Of a DNA stretch of 64,000 bases, positions 7,954 through 35,224 are shown one piece after another. The translations under genes and the position numbers were made by a program. This DNA is from Candidatus Eiseniibacteriota bacterium (GTDB lineage Bacteria > Eisenbacteria > RBG-16-71-46), in the NCBI GenBank assembly GCA_020847735.1, contig JADLBL010000021.1:126059-190058 (forward strand), given 5' to 3'. The notes under the pieces were generated by a model that worked only from the letters and a program-made list of their open reading frames with translations, ran no database searches and was not told the origin of the DNA. Position 1 is the first letter of the stretch, and every line of letters begins with the position of its first letter.

Positions 7954-8000
7954 GCGGAGAGGTGCGAGAGTGGTTGAATCGGGCGGTCTCGAAACCCGCT
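7954..8000 (+). other. tRNA-Ser(CGA)-like 5' fragment (acceptor 5' strand + D arm + anticodon arm only); candidate att remnant
   Basis: GGAGAGGTGCGAGAGTGGTTGAATCGGGCGGTCTCGAAACCCGC resembles bacterial tRNA-Ser 5' half (D-loop GAGxGGTTGAA, anticodon loop CTCGAAA); no T-arm or 3' acceptor follows, so not an intact tRNA. Confidence 0.35.
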
Positions 8001-8198
8001 GCGACGCATTTGACGCCTTCCCGCCTCGACGACCGGAACACCGCCAGACACACGTAGTTGCCCGAAGCCCCATCGAGTTAGCCTCGGTGGGGTTCGCCGT
8101 GCAGACTGGTCCCTCGTGGACCGGAGTGGCCTCATTTGGTCGCTCATGTCGGCACACTTCCGGCACAGTGCTGCGGCGACATTCGGCCCAGCGGCGCT

Positions 8199-9773
8199 TC
8201 AAGAGGCAGTCGTGCGCGCGGCCAGGCTCTCAAGCAGTGCGGCGCCGCGCGCCAGCGTCAACGCGTGCCTCCGAAGATCCTGCGGGAGCGCGCGCCGGAT
8301 CTCCACTAGCCACTTAGCCGTCCCGGCTCCTGCCGAGGCGAGCCCCGGACTTGGGACACCGGCAGCCTCCGCGAGCATATCGCCGTGTCGGGACAGCGCG
8401 TCAGCGAGCACGTAGCGGTCAGGTGACCGCTTCAGGATCAAGAGGCACTCGGCCAGATGTCGCTCCGCCGTGTGCAGCCTGCCCGCGCGGGCCTCCGTGA
8501 GCGAGAGGTTGGCCAATGTCTGCGCCGTCCCGCGGTCGTCGTGCAACCGCCGCTTGATCGCCAGTGAGCGCCGGAAGTTGATTACCGCGTCGGAGTACCG
8601 CCCCTCGGCCGCACAGGCCTCCCCGACGTTGTTCAGGATCCTGGCCCTCCACACGCGGATTCCCTCCTTGGCCGTACGCCCTCTCCGCGTACGTGCGAAC
8701 CGGGCAATCGCCCGCAGGCCTCGCCGGTAATCCACGAGTGCGCTTCTCGCATCCTGATTCGGGCCCTCGATGGCGAGTAGGCCGCGCAGCACGTAAGCCC
8801 ATGAGAGCGAATCCGCCTCGCGCGGAAGGCGGATCGCGGACTCGCGAAGGGCCGCCGCCAGCAGGCGGGCAGATGGCTCGAATCGCCCCGCCATGCGAAG
8901 GCAGTCCACGGCGATGAACGTGGACTTGAGCCGGGTGTGCGGATCGAGCCGGCGGCGGTACCACGCCAGGACCCGCGGCGCGTCCTCGTAGTGCCCCGTC
9001 CTCGAGGCGAGATTGAGGAGCGCCGCACAGCGCTGGCCCGCGCGCAATCGCACGACCGGCGCGATCCGGGGGCGGGAGGAGGCGCGCTCGCGGCGGGCCC
9101 TCACGCGAAGCAGCGACTCGAGGCTGCCCCGTGCCCAGCGAAAGACCGGCGCGAGCCCCGCCAACGCCCGTGGCGGCTGACCTGCATAACTCAGGAAGCA
9201 GATCTCACGGGGCCTCCCCTCGGCGATCGCCTCAAGCACGTCCTGGTCCCTCGCGGAGTAGCCCAGCACGAAGAGGCGCCCGTCCCGGATCGCCCGCCTG
9301 AAACTCCGCACCGCTCCCGGCACGGTCCGGGCGAGCCGGAAACTGCGGTTCTGGATCCGTGACGGCCGCAGGACCGACCCGTGCAGGTGCACGACGCGAA
9401 GAGCCCGCGCCTGTTCGAAGCAGACATCGAAGTTCGTCGTGAAGACGACGGGGAATAGACCGGCAAGGGCTCTGTGGCAGGCGTTGGGCCGCAAACCAGT
9501 CAGCCGTCCGACCATGAGCGAGTCCAGTTCGTCCGAGGCGAACGAGGAGACGTCCTGCAGGAGGCTCTCGGGTAGAAGTCGCCGGTAGGCCTGCGTGTGC
9601 ATGAGGCTACGAAGCCAGCGCCGCGAGTTGCGATCTGACAACAGTGCCGCGACGCACTCGTCCCTCAGCTTGTCGCCGAGCGGTGCGTTGGTGGGCGCGA
9701 GCCTGGATACGCCGGCGCCACAGAGCACCCATCCTCCAGCCTGCATCCGTTCACGGAACGCGCCCAGCGTCAT
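8199..9773 (-). CDS. SIR2-like (SIR2_2 family) domain protein fused to C-terminal TPR repeats; candidate defence effector
   Basis: N-term motifs GAGVS, TTNFD, HLHGS characteristic of SIR2_2 NADase-like domains; C-terminal half has TPR-like repeats; start taken at MTLGAF (9773). Confidence 0.55.
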   Translation of the reverse strand: MTLGAFRERMQAGGWVLCGAGVSRLAPTNAPLGDKLRDECVAALLSDRNSRRWLRSLMHTQAYRRLLPESLLQDVSSFASDELDSLMVGRLTGLRPNACHRALAGLFPVVFTTNFDVCFEQARALRVVHLHGSVLRPSRIQNRSFRLARTVPGAVRSFRRAIRDGRLFVLGYSARDQDVLEAIAEGRPREICFLSYAGQPPRALAGLAPVFRWARGSLESLLRVRARRERASSRPRIAPVVRLRAGQRCAALLNLASRTGHYEDAPRVLAWYRRRLDPHTRLKSTFIAVDCLRMAGRFEPSARLLAAALRESAIRLPREADSLSWAYVLRGLLAIEGPNQDARSALVDYRRGLRAIARFARTRRGRTAKEGIRVWRARILNNVGEACAAEGRYSDAVINFRRSLAIKRRLHDDRGTAQTLANLSLTEARAGRLHTAERHLAECLLILKRSPDRYVLADALSRHGDMLAEAAGVPSPGLASAGAGTAKWLVEIRRALPQDLRRHALTLARGAALLESLAARTTAS

Positions 9774-10062
9774 CCTGCGAACTCGTCCACCACCAGACCT
9801 GCCATGGGTCATGGTTCTCTCGAGGAGCGAATGATGAGCTGCGAGGACCTTCGCGCGTCACCGCGCGAGCCATTAGTGCTGGCGAGTGCCGTTTGCCCTG
9901 ACTTCAGCAGTTAAGCTGTTCCACGCCGACTGGAAGTTGAAGGGGGCAACCCGGAGAGGACGAGCAAGGCACTACCGAGCAGACACCCACACCAAATGCG
10001 CGTGCTGGCGGCGTCGCGCCTACAAGATGAAGACCCTTAGTATCGCTCCCTGGCGGGCGGTT

Positions 10063-10650
10063 CTAGCACACAACTGACACAGTCGTCGCCCCGCCTCTCG
10101 CCGGCAGTGATAACTTACCCAGAGAGACTGGCCGCAGCTCCAACTCGATGCCGTTGATGATCCATGTCTTCACAAACACCCGAGTGGCACTATCTCGTCG
10201 CTTTGCGACAAGCTCTCGCCTTCCCGGCCAGTCCCGCAGCCACTGCTCGTAGTCACTCACGACAAACGCACAATGCTCGATACCAGGCCGCAGGTCGCGA
10301 GGCGCTTCCCGCAGTTTGGGTTCGAATACCTCTACCAGCGGCATCTCCCACCCACCGCCGCGCAGCGGACGACGTAGGCGCAGTACGCAGTTCCTTCGCC
10401 CGTCGATGCTCTCGCGGCGCACTGGCAGCGCATACGCTCCAACGGTCCGCACGACGTCGTCAAACTCCCGTGCAGACCGCGCCTGCAGTCCGAGATGGTC
10501 GCCTGCGAAGCGCGCGCTTGTGAGGTCCACGCCTTCGAGTAACGCGACCGTCAAGGCCAGTCGCATGTACCGTGACGCACACCGCGCCAGAGTCCTCCAT
10601 GTTGTGATGCCATATATATCCACACCATGCATGTCTACATGATATCGCAC
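10063..10650 (-). CDS. Hypothetical protein, possibly VOC/glyoxalase-like
   Basis: ORF on same strand as SIR2-TPR gene; weak resemblance to VOC fold segments (HLGLQARSAREFDDVV, IEHCAFVVSDYEQW); start uncertain. Confidence 0.3.
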   Translation of the reverse strand: MRYHVDMHGVDIYGITTWRTLARCASRYMRLALTVALLEGVDLTSARFAGDHLGLQARSAREFDDVVRTVGAYALPVRRESIDGRRNCVLRLRRPLRGGGWEMPLVEVFEPKLREAPRDLRPGIEHCAFVVSDYEQWLRDWPGRRELVAKRRDSATRVFVKTWIINGIELELRPVSLGKLSLPARGGATTVSVVC

Positions 10651-10777
10651 ACTGGCGCCCTTGTCCCCGACCCACCGAGCCGCGTGTCGTTCCGCCGATG
10701 GCTAGACAGGGCGGTAGGCGGCGGCTACACTGCTGGATTGCGCGTAACCGGTCGTCAACTGAACACGTGAGGTCGCC

Positions 10778-12022
10778 ATGGCGCAGTGCCGCATTCTCCT
10801 CGTCTGGCCCCCGAAGGTGGAGTACGTCTTCTCAATCCAGAAGCACTTCACCTACTTTGGTGAGACTGCGGCGTTCTTGGGAAGGGAGCCCGATGTCGAA
10901 GTCACCGTCCTCGACGGAACGGCCCTTCAGCACTTCGCTTGGGCGTTCATCGAGGCCTATGCGAGCAAGTTCGACTTCGTGCTCGTCTACACTGACCTGC
11001 ACAACAGCCTCCAGGCCATCCGCGCGGCGCAGGAGTGCAAGCGGATCTCACCGGACTCGCAAGTCGTGTCCTTTGGGGAGGGGACTGCGTTTGCACCACG
11101 CACCTACGTTGAGCACGGTTTTGACGCGGCGATCGTTGACGCCATGTACGAGCGCAGTGCCCTTTCCTACATCCGATGGCGTCGGGGAGATCTCGCGGTA
11201 GATGGGCTGCACGGCGTCGTGTACGCTGATAACGGAGCGGTGCAGGAGTGCCCGCCTCGGCTGCCGATGACGATCGACGACATCGCGTTCCCTGCGTTGG
11301 ACCTGCTTCCGGTGGCACGATATGTCGAGATCAGCGGCCGAAATCAACTGTGCTTCACCGTCGCGCGGGGGTGCCCGTATCGCTGCCCGTTTTGCCGCGT
11401 CCCAGTCGCTCAGGCCGGAGGTGTGGCGTACCGCGATGCTGAGGCGGTGCTTGACTACATGGAGCAGCAGCGCGCGCGATGGAACTCGATGAAGCTCATC
11501 GCCCCGACGTTCACGGCTGATCGGGAGTGGGTGCTAGACTTCTGCAGTCGAGCTGCCGCCCGGCAGTCCGTCGGTAAGTGGATCGTCACGACTCGCCTGG
11601 AACGACTTGACCAGGAACTGCTGAGAGCGATGGCACAGGCTGGCTGCATCGCGATAGCCTTCGGGCTGGAGACCCTGGACGTGCGAACCCAAGAGCGTAT
11701 CGGGAAGCACGTCACCGAGGATGAGCTGAGGAGCCAGGTGGCTCTCATTCACGACGCAGGAATCATTCCCAAGGCGTTCATCATGCTTGGGATTCCAGGG
11801 CAGACACGGAGCGAAGTGGAGGCGACGTTTGCCAAGCTTCGTGAGCTCCGGGTCGAGATTCGACCAAAGGAGTACTATCCGTACGAGGTCTTCTCGGCCG
11901 CAGCCGACCCGATGGCTCTCTTCGAACGCTTCGACCGACAGGGAGTCTACCGGTCCCCGATGCCTGGTGTGACCGCGGCGCAGTTCGTCTCCTGGCTCCG
12001 GGACCGCACGAGTGTCCGCTAG
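10778..12022 (+). CDS. B12-binding domain radical SAM protein
   Basis: N-terminal Rossmann-like B12-binding region followed by CFTVARGCPYRCPFC (CxxxCxxC radical SAM cluster motif). Confidence 0.8.
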   Translation: MAQCRILLVWPPKVEYVFSIQKHFTYFGETAAFLGREPDVEVTVLDGTALQHFAWAFIEAYASKFDFVLVYTDLHNSLQAIRAAQECKRISPDSQVVSFGEGTAFAPRTYVEHGFDAAIVDAMYERSALSYIRWRRGDLAVDGLHGVVYADNGAVQECPPRLPMTIDDIAFPALDLLPVARYVEISGRNQLCFTVARGCPYRCPFCRVPVAQAGGVAYRDAEAVLDYMEQQRARWNSMKLIAPTFTADREWVLDFCSRAAARQSVGKWIVTTRLERLDQELLRAMAQAGCIAIAFGLETLDVRTQERIGKHVTEDELRSQVALIHDAGIIPKAFIMLGIPGQTRSEVEATFAKLRELRVEIRPKEYYPYEVFSAAADPMALFERFDRQGVYRSPMPGVTAAQFVSWLRDRTSVR

Positions 12023-13940
12023 ATTGAAGCGGATCGAAGTCGAGGCGGAGAGCGCACTCGCCGGGTTGGGCGCGTTCTGCGAGACGAGTGTGCTGCACTC
12101 GACGCACGACGGCCACGCCACGGCTGGCTTCTCGCTGGATCTTGCAGGTGGAACGAGGGGCCGAGTGAGCATCGGCGGGGCCTGCTTGGGGTTGTCGCTG
12201 TTCTCCTTCCTCGGCGAGCGCAAGGCGGGGATCGGTGATGCGATCGAGACCTACATCAGGCACCAGTACCTTCCTTGGGGTGGATGGTCGATCACCGCCT
12301 TGCGCCGAGACCGTGTTTCGCTTGTCTATACGACGAGCTTCGCCATGCAGGCCTTGGCGCGGTGGAACCGAGATGGTAACCGTGTGCTCCTACGGGATGC
12401 TTGGGCCTGGCTTCAGAACGCTCAGAACGCGGATGGAGCGTGGGGGCCGTGCCCCGGTGAAGACAGTCACCTCTACCCCACGTGCGAAGTGCTCTTCACT
12501 GCGGCGCTCCTCGGTGATCTGGTGCCACCCGGGGTCGTCAATCGCGCGCTGAAGTGGCTGATGCGGCGCCGAGTGGGACCCTGTTGGACGGACGACTGGC
12601 AGCTCCCTTCAGAGTACCTGACTGCTCTTGCGTACCGAGCCGCGACAGCGCATGGGGTCGAGTTCGACGCGAGAGCATCTCGCCAGTGGCTCCTTGAGCG
12701 ATCACGTGAAGTCGTAGATCGGCGTGAGTGGCGCATGATGATCCCGATCGAGGGAGGTCTGCTTCAGGAGCCGATCTCCGAGTTTCCACGAGCGGCCATC
12801 TTCGACGTCCTGTCGCAAGATCGCCACTCATACAACGAAGCTGGCTTCACCGAGCTTGCGCGATCGCTCCTTGGAGCCCGTGACGCCCTGGGGGTATGGC
12901 GACACCCCCCAGGTGGTCACGAAGCACCGGCCTTCTTGAACTACCACGTCGCGAGCGGCATCGCTGGGCTTCTGCGGAACAAGGGCGCACTGCATCGTTC
13001 GCGCACCGCGGCCCGGTCCGCCGCACCGCTTGGCGATGCGCCGTGGCAGCGGCTCTTGCCGGAGGAGGCACGCGTTCTACGTGAGGAAAGTCTCAACATC
13101 TCGTCGTTCCGTGTCGTCGGCTCGTACGCGAGGTGCGACGACGTTGTTCGTCGCCGACTCACCGACGTGACCACGCAGATGCTGGACGCGGTTAAGCGCA
13201 CAGACAAGTCGCTCGCGAACTACCTGTTCTGGGGTCATCCCGGTCGTGGCAAGAGCTACCTCATCGAGCAAGCGGGGGCATTTGCCTTACGGATTGGAGT
13301 CGCTTCCGCCTTCGAGAAGATCGTTCTGCCAGAACTGGATGAGGCGGGACTCTCCCGCCGACTAGCGGAAACCGGTGGCGCGCACACTAGGTCGATCGTC
13401 CTGATCGACGAATGCGATGGCAAGCTTCATGAGAAGTGGCCGTTTCCTCTACTGCTGCCCTATCTCGAGGCAAGGCAGAAGGGAGGCGGCAGCCGGGTTG
13501 TTGCGCTCGTCGGAAGCTGCGGCGAGAGCATGTCCGCGATGACATCACGGATCACTGAACGCGCGAAGGACGCAAAGGGCCCTGACTTGCTAGACCGCAT
13601 CCCAGAGGAGAATTGGCATGAGATTCCAGATCCTGATGCCGGAGACCGCGTCGTGATATTCCTGAGCCAGATGCTTGCGGTCGCGGCGGAAGAGGGTCGC
13701 CGGGTCACGGAGGTCGAGAAACTCGCACTGCTCTATGTGATGCGACATGCGGGCCTACAAAGTGTTCGACGCCTGACTCAGTGTGCGACCGATGCAGTGC
13801 GGCGCGCGGGAAGCAGTCCTATCGTGTGCTACGACCATCTGTTTGAGCCCGGAGACGACACCAACAAGTCATTCTACAATACGCACATCGCTCTCATCCG
13901 GACTTTGGGTAGGCCCTGCATGCGAGTGGCTGCAGAGTGA
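12012..13940 (+). CDS. Fusion protein: prenyltransferase/squalene-cyclase-like alpha-alpha toroid repeats (N) + AAA+ P-loop ATPase (C)
   Basis: QNADGAWG repeat motif typical of terpene-cyclase/prenyltransferase toroid repeats; C-term Walker A FWGHPGRGKSYL and Walker B IVLIDECDG; start overlaps rSAM stop by 11 nt. Confidence 0.6.
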   Translation: MSARLKRIEVEAESALAGLGAFCETSVLHSTHDGHATAGFSLDLAGGTRGRVSIGGACLGLSLFSFLGERKAGIGDAIETYIRHQYLPWGGWSITALRRDRVSLVYTTSFAMQALARWNRDGNRVLLRDAWAWLQNAQNADGAWGPCPGEDSHLYPTCEVLFTAALLGDLVPPGVVNRALKWLMRRRVGPCWTDDWQLPSEYLTALAYRAATAHGVEFDARASRQWLLERSREVVDRREWRMMIPIEGGLLQEPISEFPRAAIFDVLSQDRHSYNEAGFTELARSLLGARDALGVWRHPPGGHEAPAFLNYHVASGIAGLLRNKGALHRSRTAARSAAPLGDAPWQRLLPEEARVLREESLNISSFRVVGSYARCDDVVRRRLTDVTTQMLDAVKRTDKSLANYLFWGHPGRGKSYLIEQAGAFALRIGVASAFEKIVLPELDEAGLSRRLAETGGAHTRSIVLIDECDGKLHEKWPFPLLLPYLEARQKGGGSRVVALVGSCGESMSAMTSRITERAKDAKGPDLLDRIPEENWHEIPDPDAGDRVVIFLSQMLAVAAEEGRRVTEVEKLALLYVMRHAGLQSVRRLTQCATDAVRRAGSSPIVCYDHLFEPGDDTNKSFYNTHIALIRTLGRPCMRVAAE

Positions 13941-18468: not shown

Positions 18469-18661
18469 GCACCACCAATGCGTCTTGCTCCACGAGGCCC
18501 GTCGGCCTCGTCGACGAACTGCGGCCGTGCTATCATGCGTCCAGTATGCCATTTAGGCCGCCTCGCCCTCATCACACCACTGCTCAGTTTCCGTCTTCGA
18601 GGGTCTTGGAGTCGGCGCGCCTCGTGGGCACATGGGCATTTCTCCAAGGAGGGCGAAGTCG

Positions 18662-20110
18662 ATGAGCAGCAGCTGGTCCACCAAACGCTTCCCCGTCGCA
18701 AGCCTTCACTTGGACAAGAAGAACCCTCGGCTCGGCCGCGAGACGCTTGCGAGCGCTCCCCGCGAGATCATTCAGTACCTGTTTGACCACGACAAAGCAC
18801 TCGAGGTGGCTGACAGCATAGCGACTCGGGGGTTCTTTCCGAACGAGCCCTTGCTTGCGGTCAAAGAGGACGGTCGGCTGGTGGTCGTCGAGGGCAATCG
18901 ACGGCTTGCGGCCCTGAAGGCGCTTCGCGAACCGGGACTTCTCACCGGGTCCTCGTCTCGCCAGGTTGAACGTGTCGCTCGCAAGCTTACCGATCCGCAG
19001 TCCATCCTTACCGTGCCGGTCACGATTGCCCCCAACCGGCGCGCAACAGATCGGCAGATTGCAGGGCGACACATCGGAACGCCGGTGCTTGCGTGGCAAG
19101 CTGAGAACCGGGCGAGCTTTATTCTCGACAAGCTTGAGGAGGGGTACTCGAACGATCAGCTCAAGGACGAACTCGGCTTTACGTCCTCAGACATACAGAA
19201 CGCGCGACAGACGAGGGCGATCGCGGAGATGGCGCGGTCGCTCGAACTCTCCGACGAAGTCAAAGCCAAGCTTGAGAGTCCGAGGGCCAAGGTCTTCACC
19301 ACACTTGAACGTGTCTTCGACTCCTCCGTCGGCCGGGAGTACTTGCGCGTGCAGCCCGATCTGGATCATGGGATTCGGGGGACGACGTCAAGGTCGGAGT
19401 TCCAGCGCGCGTTCACGAGGTTGGTGACAGACGTTGCGCTTGGTAAGCAATCGTCACGCACACTCAATAGCGCCGACAACATCCGCGACTACTTTGAGTC
19501 GTGGAAGCCGGGTGAACTGCCGGCGGCAAAGCAGGGGGCCTTTGTTCCCGCAGATATCATTCAGGGTCGCTCAGTCGCTTCCTCGCCGAGACGAACCGCC
19601 GCCGCCACTCCGACGAGTCGCACGAAGCAAGTAACCCCCTATGTATTGCCGCGTGACCTGCGCGTGCGAATCAACAATCCCCGTCTGATCGACATCCGCA
19701 GCGAGCTCGTCAAGCTCGATCGGAGCAAGTTCCCCAACGCCGGGGCGGTGCTCCTGCGCGTGTTCCTCGAGCTATCGGTCACGGACTACTTGAAGCGCAC
19801 TGGCGAAATGGACTCGCTGGTCAAGAGGCTTCGGGAGATGAACGCTCTGCGGTACGGCACTCCAACGATGAAGCAAATGCTCCCGGAGATCATCCGAATC
19901 GCCAAGGCAAAGCTCCCGGCAGGAGAGGCGCTGAAGGTCGAAAAGGCACTCACCTACAACCCGGCCGCGGCATTCTCCATCAGCGAGCTCCATTCGTTCG
20001 TGCACGACACCGACGTGCCGAGCGAGCGCGATATCTGGCAGTTCTGGATGCGAACACAGGCGCTATTCAGGCTCATGCTCGAAGACGACGTAAAGAGCGC
20101 GAAGCCGTGA
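18662..20110 (+). CDS. ParB/Srx-like nuclease domain protein with uncharacterised C-terminal region
   Basis: DGRLVVVEGNRRLAALKAL matches ParB N-terminal GxRR motif; AAGGAGG RBS before ATG 18662. Confidence 0.65.
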   Translation: MSSSWSTKRFPVASLHLDKKNPRLGRETLASAPREIIQYLFDHDKALEVADSIATRGFFPNEPLLAVKEDGRLVVVEGNRRLAALKALREPGLLTGSSSRQVERVARKLTDPQSILTVPVTIAPNRRATDRQIAGRHIGTPVLAWQAENRASFILDKLEEGYSNDQLKDELGFTSSDIQNARQTRAIAEMARSLELSDEVKAKLESPRAKVFTTLERVFDSSVGREYLRVQPDLDHGIRGTTSRSEFQRAFTRLVTDVALGKQSSRTLNSADNIRDYFESWKPGELPAAKQGAFVPADIIQGRSVASSPRRTAAATPTSRTKQVTPYVLPRDLRVRINNPRLIDIRSELVKLDRSKFPNAGAVLLRVFLELSVTDYLKRTGEMDSLVKRLREMNALRYGTPTMKQMLPEIIRIAKAKLPAGEALKVEKALTYNPAAAFSISELHSFVHDTDVPSERDIWQFWMRTQALFRLMLEDDVKSAKP

Positions 20111-20964
20111 AGACGAGTAGCCCCCTACGATATCCAGGCGGCAAGTCAGCGATGGCCGGCCTCCTAGGTGGGATCCGCCGACTCAATGGTCTGGGGGCGC
20201 TATCCCTTGCCGAGCCTTTTGGCGGCGGCGCGGGTGCTTCCCTGACCCTCCTCTATCAAGAGGAAACGCCGGAGATCTTCATCAACGACGCTGACGACTC
20301 GATCCACGCATTCTGGTGGTCAGTTCTGAATCGCCCTCGCGAGTTCCAGCAGACGCTCAAGAGCACTCGCGTCAACATGACCGAGTGGCGAAGACAGCGC
20401 ATCATCTACCGACAAGCGACGCGGCAGTCCCGGCTGCGTAAGGGCTTCGCAACCTTCTACCTGAACAGATGCAACCGGTCCGGGATCATCGCGAACGGCG
20501 GTCCGATCGGTGGGATTGACCAAGCCGGACCCTGGCGACTATCGGCACGGTACAACAAGGACACGCTGCTCGATCGCTGTAAGAAGCTCGTCGAGTACCG
20601 AAGTCGCATCCATGTATCCGGCCTGGATGGTCTAGAGTTCCTATCTCGGCTCGACCAATCATCTACGATGCTGTTCATCGATCCGCCGTACTACGAGAAG
20701 GGGAGGACTCTCTACCTGAACGCGCTCAGTGACGCCTACCATGAGTCACTGGCGCAATGGCTCAAGAGTAGGAAGAACGTGGCGTGGGTCGTGACATACG
20801 ACGACTGCGACGCGATCCGTCGTCTCTATCGCGGCTGGGCTACCGTCCGGCCTTTCTCGTTGAGGTACACGGCGACGGAGCGTCGTAGCGGTCGGGAGCT
20901 ACTCATCACGCCGAAGTGGCTTCGCCTTCCGCGTAAGCAGGCATCGGAAACGATCGCTTGGTGA
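20107..20964 (+). CDS. Dam-family (D12 class) N6-adenine DNA methyltransferase
   Basis: LRYPGGK motif near N-term and IDPPYY motif IV; GTG start overlaps upstream stop (GTGA). Confidence 0.85.
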   Translation: MKTSSPLRYPGGKSAMAGLLGGIRRLNGLGALSLAEPFGGGAGASLTLLYQEETPEIFINDADDSIHAFWWSVLNRPREFQQTLKSTRVNMTEWRRQRIIYRQATRQSRLRKGFATFYLNRCNRSGIIANGGPIGGIDQAGPWRLSARYNKDTLLDRCKKLVEYRSRIHVSGLDGLEFLSRLDQSSTMLFIDPPYYEKGRTLYLNALSDAYHESLAQWLKSRKNVAWVVTYDDCDAIRRLYRGWATVRPFSLRYTATERRSGRELLITPKWLRLPRKQASETIAW

Positions 20965-21358
20965 ACGGCGCCTTGGTGGCGCGGCCATTCACTCGGCCGT
21001 GTCCTCGCCAAGCTCCGGCCGACGTCGTTTCTGTCGTACACCGGCCTTGGGCAACTCACGAGATTGTTCGACGCCGTGGCGGCCGAGGTGCCGGAGCTGC
21101 CACAGGTGCGAGCGTCCGTGCAGACGATCGACCTGCTCCGGACCACGTGGATCACGCGAGGGCCGACCATGTGGCCGGTGGAACGGCGAGGCTCCCGGGG
21201 ATCTTCGAGGACTGCTTGAGAATCGTTCGACGACTCTAGCTGTCATCAGGAACTCCGCCCTCGGCCTTTACGGCGCCAGCCGGGCTGCTATTCTTCGCTC
21301 ATCACCAACCCACATCATGCGCCCATTGCTTTCGAGAGCGACACGAAGGACCTGATCC

Positions 21359-22216
21359 ATGCGTGACAAGCCCTACTATTCCGTCAGAACAGGGAAGAAC
21401 CTCAGCGGTGGAGCGCTTGACTTGCCGACCACACTCCGCGTGTTCGGCGGCATCCACCAGACACTCGAAGATGAGGGCTACTTCCAGGAGGCCCTCGGCT
21501 ACGAGTGTGTGGACGCGGGTTCAGTTCCAGGGACTGTGGGCAAGGATGTCGAAGGCTACGTACTCCTTGAATTGCGGAAGTCGGATCTCTTGCCTGTCCG
21601 CACCCAGGTCGACCACTACCGCGAGGATGACCTCTTCGACGTGGTCGAGTTCCTCTACGAGCACGTTTCCAAGCCGGTTGATCGGCACTACCACTCCTTC
21701 AATGACTGCGGCTGGCACTGCACCTCGTTCGACCGCAGCGAGGGGCGGGCCGAGTTTCGAGAGAAGATGAATCGGATCCTCAGGCGTTACGCCGACGGTT
21801 TCGAGCTCTCGGTCGACGGGGAGGTGCTTGGACTTCCCGATGCAGGATTCGAGGCGCTCATGGAAGCTGCACTCCCGGTCGCTGACCCCGAGAACATCGA
21901 GGCGCGTGTGGACGCGGCGCGCAGAAGGTTCCGCCGATACAAGGCGTCGCTGGATGAGCGACGTGACGCAATCCGAGACCTCGCCGACGTACTCGAGTAC
22001 TTGCGACCGAAGCTGAAGGGTATTCTCGCCTCAAGGGACGAGAATGATCTGTTCAACCTCGCAAACAACTTCGGCGTGCGCCACCACAATGCCCTGCAGA
22101 AGGTCGGGTACGACCGTGCCATCTGGTACAGTTGGCTCTTCTACTACTACCTCGCCACGATCCACGCTGTTGTGAGGCTCATTCGGAAGAAAGAGGAAAC
22201 GGACGGCAGGGTGTAG
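21359..22216 (+). CDS. Hypothetical protein (possible abortive-infection-like)
   Basis: 285-aa ORF in defence context; no motif I can confidently assign. Confidence 0.45.
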   Translation: MRDKPYYSVRTGKNLSGGALDLPTTLRVFGGIHQTLEDEGYFQEALGYECVDAGSVPGTVGKDVEGYVLLELRKSDLLPVRTQVDHYREDDLFDVVEFLYEHVSKPVDRHYHSFNDCGWHCTSFDRSEGRAEFREKMNRILRRYADGFELSVDGEVLGLPDAGFEALMEAALPVADPENIEARVDAARRRFRRYKASLDERRDAIRDLADVLEYLRPKLKGILASRDENDLFNLANNFGVRHHNALQKVGYDRAIWYSWLFYYYLATIHAVVRLIRKKEETDGRV

Positions 22217-22250
22217 CGAGCTTCGGTCGATCGAGCAGTAGCGCGCACAC

Positions 22251-24749
22251 CTATAGTGCTTCAACTGCCGCGAGGAGCCGCTTCACCTCATCATGGTAGT
22301 AGGCGACGTCTTCGGAGATCGGGCACATCAGATGGAATGTCCCCGTATTGTGCAAACCACCAAGCCGACTGATTCCTGAATGCAGGTCTTGCAGCGCATC
22401 GATCAGCTCGGGTGGCACGGTCCGGATCTTCTTCAGCCCAGCCCAATCGGTGTGGAGAGCTTCGGGATCGAAGAGCGTCCGCACGCCATGCAGGATGCGC
22501 TTGTCGATCAAGACCTCAATCGCACGCCGGGTCAGGAGAAAGCATAGCTCGACCGAATGCTGGTCCAGCGAGCCTGTTCCCAGCATCGCTTGAACGCGAT
22601 CGAGCAGGTCATTCGCGGTGTCCTTCACGGAGTAAGGGGACACGATGCCGGAGGTGCCCTTGAACGACTCCACCATGTAGTACATAGGGCCACGGCCCGC
22701 CATGCCCCTGAACTGCGGGTGGTTCTTGGCGGCTTCGACCAGGCACTGGAAGACATGCTTGTTGTGTGTAAACACAATCACCTGACGGTATTCGGTCTCA
22801 TCGAGGACCCTATCGGCGACTTGCGCAATGCGCTCCGTGTCCATGCTGCTGAAGGGATCATCGACGAGGAGCACCTCACCCGTGCCACGGTGAGAAAGTT
22901 CGGACAAGCAATCAGCGAGCGCCCAGGTAGCAAGTTCGCTCTCGCTGAGGGTCTTGCGAGGTTCTCGCCCATGGACCGCGTAGCGCCTCTCCGTCACGCC
23001 CGATGGCGAGGCGGCTTTGAGCCGGAGAGGAAGACGCAGGCGGAGGCGTGAACACTCTGAATCGAAGCGTTCCCTGAAGGCAGCGAGGCCAAGGGCATTC
23101 ATTGCCTCGGTCCTCGCGGTACTCCAGCCGCGTTTCTGAGTTTCCACCTCCGCCAGGGCTGTGCGAACGGATTCTAGGATCGCCTTCAGCCCCGAAAGTT
23201 GAACGAGCTTCTCCGTGTTCTCCTTTGCGAAGCACCGACGCTCGGCCGTCGTTAATAACGGCGCCAGCTTCGCTCGGGCCGCAGAACGCGATTCAGGTGT
23301 GGCAAGTGAGGCCAGGGTCTGGCGCTCGCCCTCGAGTTCTCGGGCTACGTCAGCTTTGCTGGAGTCAATGCGTTCACGAGATGGAAGCTCATTTGGCCAC
23401 GTTGCTTCCTCGATGAGTGCAGGATCTAGCCCAAGGCGGTCAGACAATGAGCGAAGGGCCCCATGCGCTTCGTCGATCTGGGTTGCCAGGGCTGACATGC
23501 GCGTGGTGCGAGCGCCACCGACCTCCTGTCGAACACTCTTCAAGAACGCGACCGCCGCCTCGGAGAGACTCTGGCCGCAGTAGATGCAGCTGTCTGAGCC
23601 GCTTGGGTAGTCTGCCGACCGCTCCGCGGTGATGACGGACTCGCCTGCCACAACGAGGGCCCGCCACGCCGAGGTGTCCTTGAGTTCAAGCGGCCGCGCA
23701 TCGAGCAATCCGCGAAGGCCCGCCCGTTCAGCCTGCCTGAGGTCGTCCAACTCCTTCGATGCTGCCGTGAGAGCCGCACCGCTGTGCGTCTCATCGCCAA
23801 GCAGCGCCAAGGACTTCGATTCGGCTTCGAGTTCCATGATGCGCTTTCGCGCAGTGGTAGCAGACGCCTCGGCCTGATCGAGGCGGGTTAGCTGTTGTTT
23901 GAGTTCGTCCCGCTGCTTTGCGAGTGCCAGCGCATCCACGGTCGCGACGTCTCCGATGTCGGCGACAGCAGCTTCTGCTCGTGGCACGTCCTCAAGATCG
24001 AACAGCGCGTCGCGTCCAGCCGTGGCGGCTGTTCGGACTGCAGCGAGGCCGCCTTCAAATGATCGTAGTGCAGCCGTTCCGACATCGAATAGGTCCAGCC
24101 CCAAGTGCTGGGGGGCCTCAAGCGTGAGCTGCACGCCGTACTTGTCGACGGTATCCTTATCGAAGAGTCGAAGTGCTACGGGTGTCGCTGGGGCAGCATC
24201 CGATGACCATGAGGCGTCGTCGCCGCCTGCGAAGTTGATTGGATTCGCGCGCACGTCAGCGAGCCGGCAGATGCGGAACTTCGCCTGACGAGTCAAGGCG
24301 AAGCGGTCCTGCTTCGGATCTTCGTTTGCGCGGCCGGGAACGTCGCCATGCTCGATGGCGCTGCCAAGGACGGCCATTGCGCTGGCGAGGCTGGACTTTC
24401 CGGAGCCGTTCCTGCCGTAGAAGACGGTCAGCCAGGGCGAGAGGGGAATCGCCTCCGGGTAGTCGCCGAGGGCGCGGATGTTGTCGCATGCGACGATCTG
24501 GAGGATGCAGTTCGGCGCGCCGCTGGGAACAGCAGTCGAGGGTCTGGTCGTGCTGACAGGCGAAAGCGTTGGCTGTGCAAGCCCGAGCTTCGCCAATGGC
24601 ACAGTCGCGCACCAATGGTCAAATGCCTTCTGGTGTGCAGGTGCGCCGTCTCGCACAGCGTCTGCGAGCACGGCTGGCCAGGTGCCATTCTTCGTCTTGG
24701 GGATGTAGTCCTTGGCCTCTTTGTTGGGTTGTGGCGCGTCAACTGTCAT
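22251..24749 (-). CDS. RloC-like ABC/SMC-type ATPase with coiled-coil zinc hook (candidate anticodon-nuclease/defence ATPase)
   Basis: Walker A FYGRNGSGKSSL; long coiled coil with CIYCGQ CxxC hook; Walker B/D-loop VLLVDDPFSSMD; H-loop VIVFTHN; about 150-aa C-terminal extra domain; start at MTVDAPQ (24749). Confidence 0.55.
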   Translation of the reverse strand: MTVDAPQPNKEAKDYIPKTKNGTWPAVLADAVRDGAPAHQKAFDHWCATVPLAKLGLAQPTLSPVSTTRPSTAVPSGAPNCILQIVACDNIRALGDYPEAIPLSPWLTVFYGRNGSGKSSLASAMAVLGSAIEHGDVPGRANEDPKQDRFALTRQAKFRICRLADVRANPINFAGGDDASWSSDAAPATPVALRLFDKDTVDKYGVQLTLEAPQHLGLDLFDVGTAALRSFEGGLAAVRTAATAGRDALFDLEDVPRAEAAVADIGDVATVDALALAKQRDELKQQLTRLDQAEASATTARKRIMELEAESKSLALLGDETHSGAALTAASKELDDLRQAERAGLRGLLDARPLELKDTSAWRALVVAGESVITAERSADYPSGSDSCIYCGQSLSEAAVAFLKSVRQEVGGARTTRMSALATQIDEAHGALRSLSDRLGLDPALIEEATWPNELPSRERIDSSKADVARELEGERQTLASLATPESRSAARAKLAPLLTTAERRCFAKENTEKLVQLSGLKAILESVRTALAEVETQKRGWSTARTEAMNALGLAAFRERFDSECSRLRLRLPLRLKAASPSGVTERRYAVHGREPRKTLSESELATWALADCLSELSHRGTGEVLLVDDPFSSMDTERIAQVADRVLDETEYRQVIVFTHNKHVFQCLVEAAKNHPQFRGMAGRGPMYYMVESFKGTSGIVSPYSVKDTANDLLDRVQAMLGTGSLDQHSVELCFLLTRRAIEVLIDKRILHGVRTLFDPEALHTDWAGLKKIRTVPPELIDALQDLHSGISRLGGLHNTGTFHLMCPISEDVAYYHDEVKRLLAAVEAL

Positions 24750-24891
24750 GCTGGAAGCACACCACCAATCGTCTCGTCTGTCCAGAGGCGCTGTCGTTCG
24801 GGAAGCTCGAGGAATCCGCGTGAGGCAATCGCCACTCACGGGCCTGAGCTCGTCGCCGGAGAGACTGCCGCTATAGCGCTAGTCCGTCTCC

Positions 24892-26547
24892 CTATCCAAC
24901 TTCCGCGCATCGTGGCACAATAGCCTTCTCGCGGCTTCTCCTCGCCCACCGGGTGAGCGTCCCGGTCCTCCGTAGCTTCTCTTCCGTCGGGTCGATCTCC
25001 GCGAAGATCGGCGGAATCTGGAAGTCGTGCGCCTCGATCCAAGTTCGCAATCGCTCCACCACGGTGCACCAAGAGCGAGTGAGTCCTGCGTTCTCGAAGA
25101 ACGACCAGGGTTCGTTCGCTTTGTAGAGCGCTTTTCGGTCCCGGACGGTCGGGTTCGCGCAGATGGCGTGGAAGATCTGCCGGCGGCGAACCGCGTCCCC
25201 TTCCCGGAAGGCCTGCAGGAGCGAAGCGCTGAAGTTCAGCGCGCCTTCGACGCGCTTCAGGAGTTGCTCCGGCGTCGGGGCGGGCTGGTCGAGCCGGAGG
25301 CGCAGCGTGGCCTGACGGTCCAGCAAGCCGAGGCGCCGGCGCTCAAACGTCGCGTCATCGACCTGACCGCGGAGCTTCAGGGTCAGGAGCGCGTCGGATT
25401 CCCGGACCGCATCGGCAAGGGATTTCTCCATCTCGCTGCGCTGGGCGGTGCGTTCATTGATCGTGGCGTCGAGCTTGGGTCGGATGTTGTCCTTGATCCA
25501 GTCGAGTGCAGCCGGCGGGAGCGTCAGCCGCCGCAGGTCGGCTTCCAACTGTCGCTCGAGTGCGGCTTCCGGCAGGCACGGGTTCGGGCACGGTTCCCCA
25601 CCCGTGCGTCCCCGGCAGCGGTAGTAGACGAAGCGCCTCCCCGAGCGCTTGACGTGCTCTTCCGGATTGAGCTTTCGACCACACAGGCCGCAGGTGAGCA
25701 GGCCCGCGTACGCGAAGACGTGGTGGACGAAGTGCGTCCGGGTCGGGCGGCCGAGGATCGCCTGCGCCTGTTCGAACTCCTCGGGCGTCACCATCGGCGG
25801 GTGAGCTCCGCGGTACGCCTCCCCGTTCCTCAACCGAATCAGGCCCATGTAGTAAGGGTTGGCGAAGAGCTTGAAGACCGCCTGGAAGCAGAGCGGCTTA
25901 CCGCCGAGGCGAGCGGTCTTGCGAGTGCGGAGGCCGTGATCCTCGGCCCAGCGGGCGATCTCCATCGGGTTCATCCGGCGGGAGAGGAGCCGATCCCACA
26001 TCTCGCGGACGATCGGGAACCGGTCCGGGTCCTTCACGACCACCGTCGTCGACTTGGAGCGGTCCTCGCGGTAGCCGATCGGCGGGCGGAAGTTGGGCCA
26101 GCCCTGCTGGAAGCGGGCTCGGTTGCCGCGCCGGACGTTCGCGCGGAGGTCATCGATGAACTTGGTCGCGATGCCAAGCTCGAAGTTTCCGAGGAAGCGG
26201 TCGTTCCCATCGGCGGTGTACTCGCGCTCGGGAGTGATGACGCGCGTGAGCTTGCCGTCGGCTAGCGCCTGAAGGACGGTGCCGTGGTCGAAGTGGTTCC
26301 GGGCGAGGCGGTCCATCTTCCAGCACAGCACGCCCGCGATCTCGCCCTTCAGGACCCGCTTCATGAGCGAGCCGAAGATGGGCCGACCGGGCGCCTTGGC
26401 CGAGCGGGCCTCGGTCAGGACTTCCCGGACATCGAGCCCGCGGCGCAGCGCCAGGACCTGGAGTTCCTGGACCTGAGAGTCGATCGAGAGGACTTGGCGG
26501 TCGTCAGACTCCGTGGACTTGCGGGCGTAGATGACGTGGGTGGACAT
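24892..26547 (-). CDS. Large serine recombinase (resolvase/invertase N-terminal catalytic domain + recombinase + zinc-ribbon domains)
   Basis: IYARKSTESDDRQVLSIDSQ catalytic-Ser motif; central recombinase domain; CGLCGRK...YYRCRGR zinc ribbon. Confidence 0.85.
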   Translation of the reverse strand: MSTHVIYARKSTESDDRQVLSIDSQVQELQVLALRRGLDVREVLTEARSAKAPGRPIFGSLMKRVLKGEIAGVLCWKMDRLARNHFDHGTVLQALADGKLTRVITPEREYTADGNDRFLGNFELGIATKFIDDLRANVRRGNRARFQQGWPNFRPPIGYREDRSKSTTVVVKDPDRFPIVREMWDRLLSRRMNPMEIARWAEDHGLRTRKTARLGGKPLCFQAVFKLFANPYYMGLIRLRNGEAYRGAHPPMVTPEEFEQAQAILGRPTRTHFVHHVFAYAGLLTCGLCGRKLNPEEHVKRSGRRFVYYRCRGRTGGEPCPNPCLPEAALERQLEADLRRLTLPPAALDWIKDNIRPKLDATINERTAQRSEMEKSLADAVRESDALLTLKLRGQVDDATFERRRLGLLDRQATLRLRLDQPAPTPEQLLKRVEGALNFSASLLQAFREGDAVRRRQIFHAICANPTVRDRKALYKANEPWSFFENAGLTRSWCTVVERLRTWIEAHDFQIPPIFAEIDPTEEKLRRTGTLTRWARRSREKAIVPRCAEVG

Positions 26548-26594
26548 GTGGCGGTGAGGTTGCCATTCAGCAATTCCTCAAGACGGCGCTCCGG

Positions 26595-26879
26595 TCAAGA
26601 GCGAGGATGCGCGAACTCTGCGAACGACTCGCCGGCCGCCGGCATCGCGCCGTGTCCCTGCAGGAGCATCTCGACGAGCGCGAGCAGGGCGATTGCGCGG
26701 CCCCATGCTTCGGGCAGCGACAGGCTGACGCCGCATTCGCGCTCGAGAATCGTCTGGAAGCGGCGCACCTCGGCTTCGCTCAGGCCGGCGCCAAAACGCC
26801 TGACCAGGGGCGGTTCAGGTGCGTGATCGAAGGCGACGGAATCGGCCATGCCCTCAGCATGGCCGCTTGATCGCCCCAT
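26595..26879 (-). CDS. Small hypothetical protein adjacent to recombinase
   Basis: 94-aa ORF; no motifs; could be RDF/excisionase-like but unsupported. Confidence 0.3.
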   Translation of the reverse strand: MGRSSGHAEGMADSVAFDHAPEPPLVRRFGAGLSEAEVRRFQTILERECGVSLSLPEAWGRAIALLALVEMLLQGHGAMPAAGESFAEFAHPRS

Positions 26880-26980
26880 GTGCAGGGGGTGGGAAGCACG
26901 GAACCACGGCAGCCCTGTGGACGGGCGCGCACGTCTCCCGACCGCCTGGGCATCGTCGCCGGAGCGTGTACGGTCTGAAC

Positions 26981-35212: not shown

Positions 35213-35224
35213 CCGAGGGCGAGA

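What the first reader, a model, noticed from the sequence alone, without database searches (positions are those of the whole stretch)
7954..26900. Low-G+C island with tRNA-Ser-like 5' fragment at one edge and serine recombinase at the other
The sequence GGAGAGGTGCGAGAGTGGTTGAATCGGGCGGTCTCGAAACCCGC resembles the 5' half of a tRNA-Ser(CGA) but has no T-arm or acceptor 3' strand. About 18.5 kb to the right there is a large serine recombinase, and everything in between is defence cargo with lower G+C than the flanks. This is consistent with an integrative element that disrupted or duplicated a tRNA gene.
Basis: partly seen in the sequence, partly recalled or inferred. Interest (0 to 1): 0.5.

Follow-up and report, generated by a model that had tools for sequence, protein, structure and literature searches.

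The report
Truncated tRNA-Ser beside large defence island
A serine tRNA gene of an uncultured Eisenbacteria bacterium has lost its 3' half to more than 57 kb of strain-specific anti-phage DNA, and the serine recombinase inside that DNA is an internal gene whose own attachment site is still unused, not the island's far edge.

Summary
A contig 99.1% identical over the left flank carries the intact 90-nt gene at exactly this place, followed by a different island. The recombinase at 24892-26547 is a real large serine recombinase, the genes between are defence genes, and G+C falls from 0.707 to 0.638.

The accessory DNA does not stop at the recombinase. It runs to the end of the window, at least 57 kb, and no tRNA 3' half, att repeat or second recombinase was found.

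Two relatives show how this recombinase family integrates. Its attP lies inside its own reading frame, at a conserved Trp codon (TGG, the antisense of tRNA CCA). Integration happens at the 3' end of an intact tRNA gene and splits the recombinase gene. In the window the gene is unsplit, so this enzyme's normal reaction did not cut tRNA-Ser.

I could not resolve what cut it. My estimates are 0.45 for site-specific insertion by an integrase outside the window and 0.3 for a later deletion. This is a variant of known kinds and of moderate interest.

The parts
5939..7801 (-). Core flank gene, peptidase S15/CocE-NonD hydrolase, divergent from the tRNA. Last gene shared with the sister contig.
   Evidence: Pfam. 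Protein 100% identical in NCBI WBZR01000028.1. Window 1-7998 is 99.1% identical to that contig.
7956..8001 (+). tRNA-Ser(CGA) pseudogene. It holds the acceptor 5' strand, D arm, anticodon stem-loop and about 2 nt of the variable arm. The variable stem, T arm and acceptor 3' strand are missing. It differs from the sister allele at 7971 and 7974 (D loop) and at 7995.
8002..8198 (.). Non-coding spacer on the island side of the junction. It matches nothing else in the window or in any fetched locus except same-strain contigs.
8199..9812 (-). SIR2-like/TPR protein (NCBI MCC6350192.1, called as 524 aa). This end gene is conserved in three diverged variants of the element.
   Evidence: Pfam SIR2_2 and TPR. 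Cluster members sit on the 24,871-nt and 21,455-nt Logan contigs that also carry the recombinase.
10063..13940 (.). Variable cargo: YecM/VOC-like (-), radical SAM (+) and a squalene-cyclase-like 642-aa protein (+).
   Evidence: A 253-aa gene at 14030-14791 follows this block; L225 shares the window down to 14032 and carries other genes beyond that point.
14904..24839 (.). Defence cargo downstream of the recombinase: N6/N4 methyltransferase (14904-16634, -), HTH, HEAT-repeat protein, PD-Lambda-5 A/B (18632-20964), PDC-S32-like (21359-22216) and PDC-S06 ABC ATPase (22251-24839, -).
   Evidence: Pfam and PADLOC. 98% identical in L208-L211 and 93% in L225.
24892..26547 (-). Large serine recombinase, 551 aa, unsplit (NCBI MCC6350204.1). 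The C-terminal 'tail' is 24892-25062.
   Evidence: Pfam. Catalytic-motif residues including R9 and S11 are invariant in 30 homologues. Homologue C-termini.
25040..25095 (-). Intact attP of the recombinase, inside its own ORF. The core TGGTGCACC is at 25071-25063 (Trp-Cys-Thr codons). CGAAC starts 25 nt from the T of TGG, which is the attP-type spacing.
   Evidence: Inferred from the attL/attR pairs of L205 and L239, with the 5-bp rule from PMC3783163.
26580..26852 (-). Small ORF upstream of and co-oriented with the recombinase. It is present (70-95 aa) in every relative. Its role as regulator or directionality factor is only inferred.
   Evidence: Gene tables.
26887..34716 (+). A 7.83-kb insertion relative to L208-type copies. 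It holds DUF3024/PDC-S43, a membrane ORF, a fragment of the HTH_23 gene (28275-28402) and a complete Shango system SngA/B/C (28678-34473).
34664..38281 (+). HTH_23 regulator (conserved partner of the recombinase module), FRG/PDC-S15, lambda-Ea47-like protein and DUF5677.
38680..47487 (+). Conserved backbone of the element: HTH_3, two ~176-aa proteins, two RuvC-like proteins (40069-40584 and 40703-41221), unknowns, PD-(D/E)XK nuclease, RadC and DUF932. A pentapeptide/ion-channel gene lies on the minus strand at 42900-44132.
   Evidence: The same order occurs in L225 and L228.
47611..49563 (-). Ser/Thr kinase (PD-T4-6-like), flanked by 160-nt direct repeats that are 81% identical (47334-47493 and 49458-49616).
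49617..64000 (.). Further accessory genes of unknown function (SH3, a 407-aa protein, DUF900 hydrolase and others). The right end of the accessory region is not reached.
   Evidence: The 407-aa protein has only Logan copies at 100%, then 73%, then 50% or less in scattered phyla. No tRNA or native 3' half up to window-equivalent 65445.

Best explanation
Window 7956-8001 is the remnant of the chromosomal tRNA-Ser(CGA) gene of a Candidatus Eisenbacteria MAG. It marks the left junction of at least 57 kb of strain-specific accessory DNA, at a site where close relatives carry other islands. That DNA is a mosaic built on one mobile element. The element has a conserved backbone (HTH_3, two RuvC-like genes, PD-(D/E)XK, RadC, DUF932), a recombination module (HTH_23, a small ORF and the large serine recombinase), and several slots filled with defence systems: SIR2-TPR, a methyltransferase, PD-Lambda-5, PDC-S06, Shango, PDC-S15, PDC-S43 and a PD-T4-6-like kinase. 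The recombinase is an internal gene. Its family integrates at the CCA end of tRNA genes through an attP inside its own ORF, which leaves the tRNA intact and splits the recombinase gene. Here that attP is unrecombined, so the enzyme's canonical reaction did not produce the tRNA-Ser junction (shown). What cut the tRNA at the boundary between anticodon stem and variable arm is inferred only. I think a site-specific insertion whose partner junction and integrase lie beyond the window is most likely (about 0.45). The leading alternative is a later deletion or illegitimate recombination (about 0.3).
For: Fragment and junction:
- Searches show the fragment is a real tRNA-Ser(CGA) 5' half.
- The sister contig (99.1% identical over 7,998 nt) has the intact tRNA and a different island. 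Homology ends at tRNA nt 43.
- The same junction appears in an independent Logan contig (L212, 100% identical from 7955).
- By arithmetic, the 24,871-nt L208-type contig ends at window-equivalent ~7965. It carries homologues of SIR2-TPR, the YecM-like protein, the radical SAM protein and the SQHop-like protein.
- Protein accessions run consecutively across the junction in the deposited MAG contig.

Recombinase is internal:
- L208 and L225 share both sides of it.
- The L228 backbone has the same gene order.

attP inside the ORF:
- In L205 the recombinase body abuts an intact tRNA-Arg and the tail lies 8.6 kb away at the other end.
- In L239 the body abuts tRNA-Glu and the tail lies 6.1 kb away.
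- P0032 and P0054 read into an antisense T loop directly after the Trp codon.
- CGAAC sits 5 bp further from the core in attP than in attB, as expected for serine integrases (PMC3783163).
- The window holds no second recombinase or attP.

For a site-specific event rather than a deletion:
- The break lies at the anticodon stem-loop.
- The SIR2-TPR end is conserved in three diverged variants.
- TCG is 45% of Ser codons in the core genes, so an arrangement that keeps a working tRNA-Ser(CGA) is the likelier one to persist.
Against: No integrase other than the serine recombinase was found in 57 kb. No 3' half, direct repeat or intact tRNA lies within reach. A lone 5' fragment is the reverse of the usual island signature, in which the tRNA is regenerated and a 3' fragment is displaced (PMC4383910). 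How an element with an unrecombined attP came to sit in a chromosome is not explained. The physical link between flank and island rests on the deposited assembly, because the k=31 Logan contigs all break inside the tRNA 5' half, which many organisms share.
Confidence: 0.55

Rival explanations
1. Secondary deletion or illegitimate recombination. An ordinary island once lay downstream of an intact tRNA-Ser. A later deletion then removed the tRNA 3' half together with the adjacent integrase and fused mid-tRNA to the DNA just beyond the 3' end of the SIR2-TPR gene, fixing the island in place.
For: There are no att repeats and no integrase next to the tRNA. The sister strain shows the classical layout, with an intact tRNA and the island starting right after it. 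Six SNPs cluster in the last 90 nt before the junction, against 0.9% overall, which fits relaxed constraint on a dead gene and its promoter. The recombinase attP is intact.
Against: Losing tRNA-Ser(CGA) should be costly when TCG is the commonest Ser codon. The same end is kept in variants of the element that differ by 2-10%, so the event would have to be old and then have spread. The break coincides with a structural boundary of the tRNA.
Confidence: 0.3
2. The serine recombinase inserted a ~19-kb element (7954-26900) into tRNA-Ser and split it, with the recombinase gene at the far edge.
For: The family does target tRNA genes. Serine integrases need no long repeat. G+C rises near 25 kb. The recombinase and the tRNA fragment converge, as in L205 and L239.
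Against: There is no 3' half near 25-27 kb. The recombinase ORF and attP are unsplit. Near-identical copies continue on both sides of the gene. The family's crossover is at the CCA end next to the recombinase body, not in mid-tRNA 17 kb away.
Confidence: 0.06
3. Tandem accretion. Window 8002-25066 is the remnant of an older element of the same recombinase family that had integrated at tRNA-Ser. Its own recombinase body and the tRNA 3' half were later deleted. The present recombinase body belongs to a second element and merely reads into the older element's tail.
For: Dehalococcoides ssrA islands form such arrays, and there the recombinase gene reads into the neighbouring island (PMC3146451). 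G+C is lowest exactly between the fragment and the recombinase stop codon. In L225 the cargo is 93% identical but the recombinase 89% and the backbone 85%.
Against: The mismatch profile against L208 shows no break at the attP core, with no differences between 25043 and 25209. The site has attP geometry on the tail (P') arm (the body arm was not examined). This model still needs a deletion. The tRNA-Ser 3' end differs from the family's known targets. No second tail was found to the right.
Confidence: 0.06
4. Assembly chimera, with flank and island joined through the 40-nt tRNA 5' half that many organisms in a metagenome share.
For: All k=31 Logan contigs break inside the fragment. In my look-ups, flank proteins and island proteins were never returned from the same Logan sample.
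Against: The deposited MAG contig is continuous with consecutive protein accessions. The junction between tRNA fragment and island is itself inside single contigs from other samples, so a truncated tRNA beside this island exists whichever flank is on its left. A 40-nt repeat is shorter than typical final k-mers.
Confidence: 0.05

Closest known systems
Classical tRNA-associated genomic islands (Islander/TIGER type; PMC4383910, PMC7192596)
   Same: Strain-variable foreign DNA lies directly downstream of a tRNA gene, with lower G+C and defence cargo. The same tRNA-Ser locus carries a different island in a sister strain.
   Different: In those islands a tyrosine integrase sits next to a regenerated, intact tRNA, and a displaced 3' fragment marks the far end. 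Here only a 5' fragment is present, with no tyrosine integrase and no repeat in 57 kb.
Dehalococcoides ssrA-specific islands with the large serine recombinase DsiB (PMC3146451)
   Same: A ~540-aa serine recombinase whose 3' end overlaps the att site at the 3' end of a t(m)RNA gene, with a variable C-terminus in the integrated state and small cargo-carrying integrative elements. This is what L205 and L239 show for the window's recombinase family.
   Different: The targets are tRNA genes (Arg-TCG, Glu-CTC) at the CCA end, not the ssrA T loop. The shared core is only 3-6 nt, not a 20-bp repeat. In the window the gene is unsplit and is not next to any tRNA 3' end.
tRNA-dependent lysogeny of actinobacteriophages (PMC10865867)
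   Same: Integration into a tRNA gene with only a short common core, so that the host tRNA is not rebuilt.
   Different: Those are phages with tyrosine integrases, and they carry a replacement tRNA. No tRNA gene exists in the 57 kb seen here, and no phage structural genes were found (only ten backbone and cargo proteins were scanned against PHROGs). Close relatives of the recombinase were also absent from IMG/VR.
phiRSM filamentous phages of Ralstonia (PMC3816273)
   Same: A serine-family recombinase that uses the 3' end of the tRNA-Ser(UCG-decoding) gene as attB.
   Different: That enzyme is a small resolvase-like protein with a 13-nt core at the tRNA 3' end, and the tRNA is preserved. Here the break is in mid-tRNA and the enzyme is a large serine recombinase of another family.
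Gene-disrupting serine-integrase elements (for example SPbeta, skin, A118 in comK). Comparison drawn from general knowledge.
   Same: Insertion that splits a host gene without duplication. The L228 relative lies next to a comM gene truncated after ..GAMNP.
   Different: In those systems attP is next to the integrase gene and is consumed by integration. Here the only recognisable attP is intact.

Membership tests
Functional tRNA gene (tRNA-Ser) | Complete cloverleaf: acceptor stem with both strands, D arm, anticodon arm, long variable arm and T arm | tested here: not met
   ARAGORN finds 0 genes. Rfam gives only tRNA-Sec at 13.2 bits against 50.6 bits (RF00005) for the intact sister gene. No T arm or acceptor 3' strand.
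tRNA-Ser(CGA) by descent (pseudogene) | Sequence homology to bona fide tRNA-Ser(CGA) genes, and position orthologous to an intact gene | tested here: met
   39 nt exact in at least 120 genomes and 47/48 to L024. An intact gene lies at the same place in a flank that is 99.1% identical.
Large serine recombinase / serine integrase | N-terminal resolvase catalytic domain with the catalytic Ser, then a recombinase domain and a zinc-ribbon domain | tested here: met
   PF00239, PF07508 and PF13408. R9, S11 and other catalytic-motif residues are invariant in 30 homologues.
Element integrated by this serine recombinase | attP consumed: recombinase body next to the tRNA 3' end (attR), C-terminal tail at the other end (attL) | tested here: not met
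   The ORF is continuous at 551 aa with attP-type spacing. No second copy or tail elsewhere. L205 and L239 show what the integrated state looks like.
Serine-integrase att sites | Zinc-ribbon-domain motif 5 bp closer to the crossover in attB than in attP (PMC3783163) | tested here: met
   CGAAC starts at nt 20 from TGG in both attB sites (tRNA-Arg, tRNA-Glu) and at nt 25 in the three attP sequences (L205, L239, window). That the motif binds the zinc-ribbon domain is inferred.
Islander-type tRNA island | Intact tRNA at one end, displaced tRNA fragment as direct repeat at the other, tyrosine integrase inside | tested here: not met
   None of the three is present within window 1-64000 plus 1.4 kb (and the Pfam scans). 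The distal end lies outside the data.
Shango defence system | SngA (TerB-N/TerB/TerB-C), SngB (BrxD-like ATPase) and SngC (DEAD helicase) in one operon | tested here: met
   PADLOC E-values: SngA 5e-86, SngB 7e-182, SngC 3e-265. Pfam domains. Function not tested.
PD-Lambda-5 | Adjacent A protein and B (D12-type methyltransferase-like) protein | tested here: met
   PADLOC E-values: A 1e-46, B 2e-93.
Prophage | Virion structural, packaging and lysis genes | tested here: not met
   No such Pfam or PHROG hits. The family is almost absent from IMG/VR.

The most novel reading that the evidence does not exclude
The window's recombinase would belong to a widespread, uncharacterised family of large serine integrases with an attP written into their own coding sequence. 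The conserved Trp codon TGG is the antisense of the tRNA CCA end. The conserved Arg-Thr-Trp codons supply a T-loop-like CGAAC motif 5 bp further out. Integration therefore removes the enzyme's C-terminal tail and excision restores it, which would act as a built-in switch. In addition, larger defence-carrying elements that hold this module would enter chromosomes by a second, target-disrupting route that leaves the attP unused (tRNA-Ser here, comM in L228). The window would then show a mobile defence element with two alternative integration modes.
Probability: 0.3. Interest if true: 0.6.

Novelty: new variant of a known kind. Interest (0 to 1): 0.45.

Why it matters
The window gives a clean natural comparison. 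Two strains 99.1% identical in the flank carry, at one tRNA-Ser locus, either an intact gene plus one island or a truncated gene plus a different island of more than 57 kb. This shows how fast such hotspots turn over, and that turnover can cost the tRNA.

It also corrects a tempting annotation rule. A recombinase gene inside an island is not necessarily its edge or its integrase.

The side result is that a family of serine integrases targets the CCA end of tRNA genes through an attP inside its own gene. This runs against the statement that serine integrases do not use tRNA genes (PMC4383910, PMC7192596). It extends the single Dehalococcoides precedent to other phyla. It also offers compact, predictable att sites for genome engineering of uncultured lineages.

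Tried and rejected
- **tRNA 3' half.** I searched with an exact pattern, a fuzzy regex, generic halves by BLAST and the true native half. Only chance matches of 15 nt or less turned up.
- **att repeats.** I compared the junction with the rest of the window and with 26.4-27.5 kb. Only chance 11-12-mers matched. The 12-mer ATCTACGCCCGC lies on the native side and encodes the recombinase IYAR motif.
- **Empty site via peptidase orthologues.** Metagenome contigs held proteins 63-77% identical, but with no synteny and no tRNA-Ser, so they were uninformative. The exact-protein look-up later gave the sister locus.
- **Viral collections.** There were no close relatives of the recombinase and no match to the junction sequence.
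- **Second recombinase.** Pfam and PHROGs on the ORFs tested across 8-65 kb found none. The conserved 306-aa backbone protein has no tyrosine-recombinase motifs by eye.
- **Shared end motif.** The window junction and the L228 comM junction align no better than random.
- **Recombination break at the attP core.** The mismatch profile against L208 shows mosaicism inside the recombinase gene but no break at 25063-25071.
- **Pseudo-attB idea.** The D loop and anticodon arm of the fragment resemble a tRNA-3'-end attB (TGGT...CTCGAA, 17/26 by eye). I rejected this because tRNA homology runs uninterrupted through that stretch.
- **Weak Rfam hits.** mir-3150, ALIL, Scr1601 and others are chance matches below threshold.

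Full report
**Observation.** The quoted sequence is present, but the tRNA begins at window 7956. Bases 7956-7994 comprise the acceptor 5' strand, D arm, anticodon stem 5' strand and the loop CTCGAAA with anticodon CGA. They match exactly the tRNA-Ser(CGA) genes of at least 120 genomes from Acidobacteriota, Chlorobiota, Ignavibacteria and other phyla, all of which continue into a variable arm, T arm and CCTCTCC acceptor strand. The best BLAST match is 47/48 over 7954-8001. In the window, similarity stops at about 8001. ARAGORN finds no tRNA in 64 kb. Rfam gives nothing at window scale and only tRNA-Sec at 13.2 bits, E=5, in a 201-nt search. No T arm or acceptor 3' strand exists anywhere in the window. 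The fragment is therefore a real but dead half-gene.

The ORF at 24892-26547 (-) has Resolvase, Recombinase and Zn_ribbon_recom domains. The genes between it and the fragment are:
- a SIR2-TPR protein;
- a YecM/VOC-like protein;
- a radical-SAM and cyclase-like pair;
- an N6/N4 methyltransferase;
- a HEAT-repeat protein;
- PD-Lambda-5 A/B;
- a PDC-S32-like protein;
- a PDC-S06 ATPase.

G+C is 0.707 left of the fragment and 0.638 for 8002-26900 (p=7.5e-5).

**The same locus in a close relative.** The peptidase next to the fragment has a 100%-identical copy on NCBI contig WBZR01000028.1 (GCA_009612875.1, 247 kb). That contig is 99.1% identical to window 1-7998, with 72 mismatches. At the corresponding position it carries an intact 90-nt tRNA-Ser(CGA), confirmed by ARAGORN and by Rfam tRNA at 50.6 bits. 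Downstream of that gene lies a different island holding an SMC-like ATPase, ThiF/E2-like genes, an M78 peptidase and an adenylosuccinate-synthase-like protein. It has no similarity to the window's island. Several Logan contigs carry the same intact allele.

Homology between window and sister ends at tRNA nucleotide 43. So the window's lineage has lost the tRNA from the anticodon-stem/variable-arm boundary onward, and this tRNA-Ser locus is a variable hotspot.

The window allele differs from the sister at 7971, 7974 and 7995. Six of the 72 mismatches fall in the last 90 nt before the junction. This fits either relaxed constraint on a dead gene or import of the junction region from a more distant strain by homologous recombination.

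TCG makes up 45% of serine codons in the flanking core genes, so losing this tRNA should not be neutral.

**Extent of the foreign DNA.** The low G+C continues to about 38 kb. Beyond the recombinase lie:
- DUF3024/PDC-S43;
- a complete Shango system SngA/B/C;
- an HTH_23 regulator;
- FRG/PDC-S15;
- an Ea47-like protein;
- DUF5677;
- a block of HTH_3, two RuvC-like genes, a PD-(D/E)XK nuclease, RadC and DUF932;
- a PD-T4-6-like kinase;
- genes of unknown function.

Logan contigs from other samples (L208-L211) are 98% identical to window 14893-26886 and 97% identical to 34717-40502. They lack the 7.83-kb stretch 26887-34716 that carries Shango. A third variant, L225, shares 14032-21215 (93%), the recombinase (89%) and the backbone (85%), but has other cargo in between. 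A more distant chromosomal relative, L228 on a 503-kb contig, has the same backbone order DUF932-RadC-PDDEXK-...-RuvC-RuvC-...-HTH_3-small ORF-recombinase.

A 407-aa protein at 56.4 kb has only Logan copies at 100%, then 73%, then 50% or less in scattered phyla, so that region is accessory too. Neither the native tRNA 3' half nor the sister's downstream sequence occurs up to window-equivalent 65445. The recombinase therefore sits in the middle of the accessory DNA, and the right boundary lies outside the window.

**How this recombinase family integrates.** Homologue P0004 (87% identical, 513 aa) ends inside the antisense of an intact tRNA-Arg(TCG) in L205. The missing C-terminal tail (WCTVVERLRTWI..FQIPP..) lies 8.6 kb away at the other end of a small cargo element, next to a tRNA-Pro gene. 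Joining the two ends restores the 551-aa ORF and leaves tRNA-Arg and tRNA-Pro adjacent.

Homologue P0046 (60% identical) shows the same pattern at tRNA-Glu(CTC) in L239, with the tail 6.1 kb away. P0032 and P0054 read ..ESNL.., an antisense T loop, directly after the conserved Trp.

The shared core is TGG plus a few bases, which is the antisense of the encoded CCA end. In both attB sites the T-loop motif CGAAC starts 20 nt from the T of TGG. In the three attP sequences (L205, L239, window), CGAAC is encoded by the conserved Arg-Thr-Trp codons and starts at nt 25. A 5-bp inward shift of the zinc-ribbon-domain motif in attB relative to attP is the published hallmark of serine-integrase sites (PMC3783163).

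This family therefore integrates at the 3' end of tRNA genes, preserves the tRNA and splits its own gene. Only the sequence evidence is shown here; the biochemistry is inferred. The precedent is DsiB of the Dehalococcoides ssrA islands, whose 3' end always overlaps attL (PMC3146451). General statements that serine integrases are not known to target tRNA genes (PMC4383910; PMC7192596) do not hold for this family.

**Consequence for the window.** The window's recombinase is unsplit, its attP (core 25071-25063 on the minus strand) has attP spacing, and there is no second copy, tail or attP-like site. The tRNA-Ser break is in mid-gene and 17 kb away, not at a CCA end next to the recombinase body. 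The canonical reaction of this enzyme did not make the junction. The att repeats predicted near 26.5-27.4 kb are absent.

**Is the junction real?** The window comes from an NCBI MAG named Candidatus Eisenbacteria bacterium. Protein accessions run consecutively from the flank (MCC6350190.1) through SIR2-TPR (..192), the recombinase (..204) and the 407-aa protein (..237) on a 226-kb contig. Logan contig L212 from another data set is 100% identical from 7955 to 22022.

The 24,871-nt contig behind L208 extends 6,928 nt past the fetched locus, to window-equivalent ~7965. It carries homologues of the SIR2-TPR, YecM-like, radical-SAM, cyclase-like and 253-aa proteins at 90% identity or more. A 21,455-nt contig of the P0002 type also holds a SIR2-TPR homologue. 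So the junction between tRNA fragment and SIR2-TPR is shared by diverged variants of the element.

One caveat remains. Every k=31 contig breaks inside the widely shared tRNA 5' half, so the link between this particular flank and the island rests on the deposited assembly.

**What cut the tRNA?** This cannot be settled with the data in reach.

- *Site-specific insertion (about 0.45).* In favour: the break lies at the anticodon stem-loop; the end is conserved across variants; and selection should favour keeping a tRNA-Ser(CGA). The partner junction would then lie more than 57 kb to the right. It would be either the bare 3' half or a regenerated gene.
- *Later deletion (about 0.3).* In favour: there is no repeat and no integrase beside the tRNA; the sister has the classical layout; and SNPs cluster at the dead gene.

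Also unexplained is how elements with an unused attP sit in chromosomes. L228 does the same, beside a comM gene truncated after ..GAMNP. The two junctions share no motif.

**Verdict.** The feature is a truncated tRNA at an island hotspot, next to a large mosaic defence element whose serine recombinase is internal and unused. It is a variant of known kinds. The most useful by-product is the sequence-level description of a tRNA-CCA-targeting serine-integrase family with its attP inside its own gene.

Noticed in passing
L205 2864-11485; L239 5415-11480: Complete small integrative elements (8.6 and 6.1 kb) of the same recombinase family. The recombinase gene is split by integration at the CCA end of tRNA-Arg(TCG) and tRNA-Glu(CTC), with the C-terminal tail at the opposite end.
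   Followed up: yes
window 25200-26100 compared with L208: Inside an otherwise 98-99% identical stretch, the middle of the recombinase gene (recombinase, zinc-ribbon and coiled-coil region) is 10-19% divergent. The small-ORF region 26500-26900 is also divergent, while the catalytic domain and the attP core are nearly identical. This mosaic suggests recombination or diversifying change in the DNA-binding part.
   Followed up: partly
window 28275-28402 and 34877-35008: A ~130-nt fragment of the HTH_23 regulator gene (73% identical to the full copy) sits just upstream of Shango. This suggests the Shango cassette came from another element of the family by recombination at that gene.
   Followed up: partly
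window 47334-47493 and 49458-49616: 160-nt direct repeats, 81% identical, flank the PD-T4-6-like Ser/Thr kinase gene. The first copy is the 3' end of the DUF932 gene. This looks like another cargo insertion slot.
   Followed up: no
window 50113-50522 and 50780-51178: Two adjacent paralogous small genes (about 145 aa, 67% identical DNA) of unknown function.
   Followed up: no
window 32220-32302: An 83-nt near-perfect hairpin at the SngB/SngC boundary. It matched the mir-3150 model on both strands at chance level (E about 5). It is probably just an inverted repeat inside coding sequence.
   Followed up: no
L228 16385-17530: In a 503-kb chromosomal contig, a relative of the element with an unsplit recombinase lies next to a comM-like gene. 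That gene is cut inside its Mg_chelatase domain (profile 1-161 of 207, ending ..GAMNP then unrelated residues), which suggests another target-disrupting insertion.
   Followed up: partly
L216 1-9756: In the sister contig, the island downstream of the intact tRNA-Ser carries ThiF (E1-like), Prok-E2_E, a 933-aa SMC-like ATPase, an M78 peptidase and an adenylosuccinate-synthase-like/AAA protein. None is shared with the window. No recombinase or tRNA repeat lies in the first 9.7 kb.
   Followed up: partly
window 7971-7996: The D loop and anticodon arm of the fragment (TGGTTGAATCGGGCGGTCTCGAAACC) resemble the family's attB half-site (TGGTGCGCCCGGAGGGACTCGAACCC, 17/26). The sister allele has CGGC instead of TGGT. 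tRNA homology runs straight through the stretch, so I treated this as coincidence.
   Followed up: partly
window 10778-13940: A radical-SAM protein (weak PADLOC hit to PDC-M51A) is translationally coupled to a 642-aa protein with weak squalene-cyclase/prenyltransferase-like repeats. This may be an uncharacterised two-gene defence or modification system.
   Followed up: no
window 54873-61774: A cluster of an SH3-domain protein, a 407-aa protein, a DUF900 alpha/beta hydrolase, a 726-aa protein and a 286-aa protein. Homologues of the 407-aa protein are scattered across Acidobacteriota, Chloroflexi and Hahella at 45-50% identity. Function unknown, with no PADLOC hit for the three proteins scanned (the 407-aa protein, the DUF900 hydrolase and the 726-aa protein).
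   Followed up: partly
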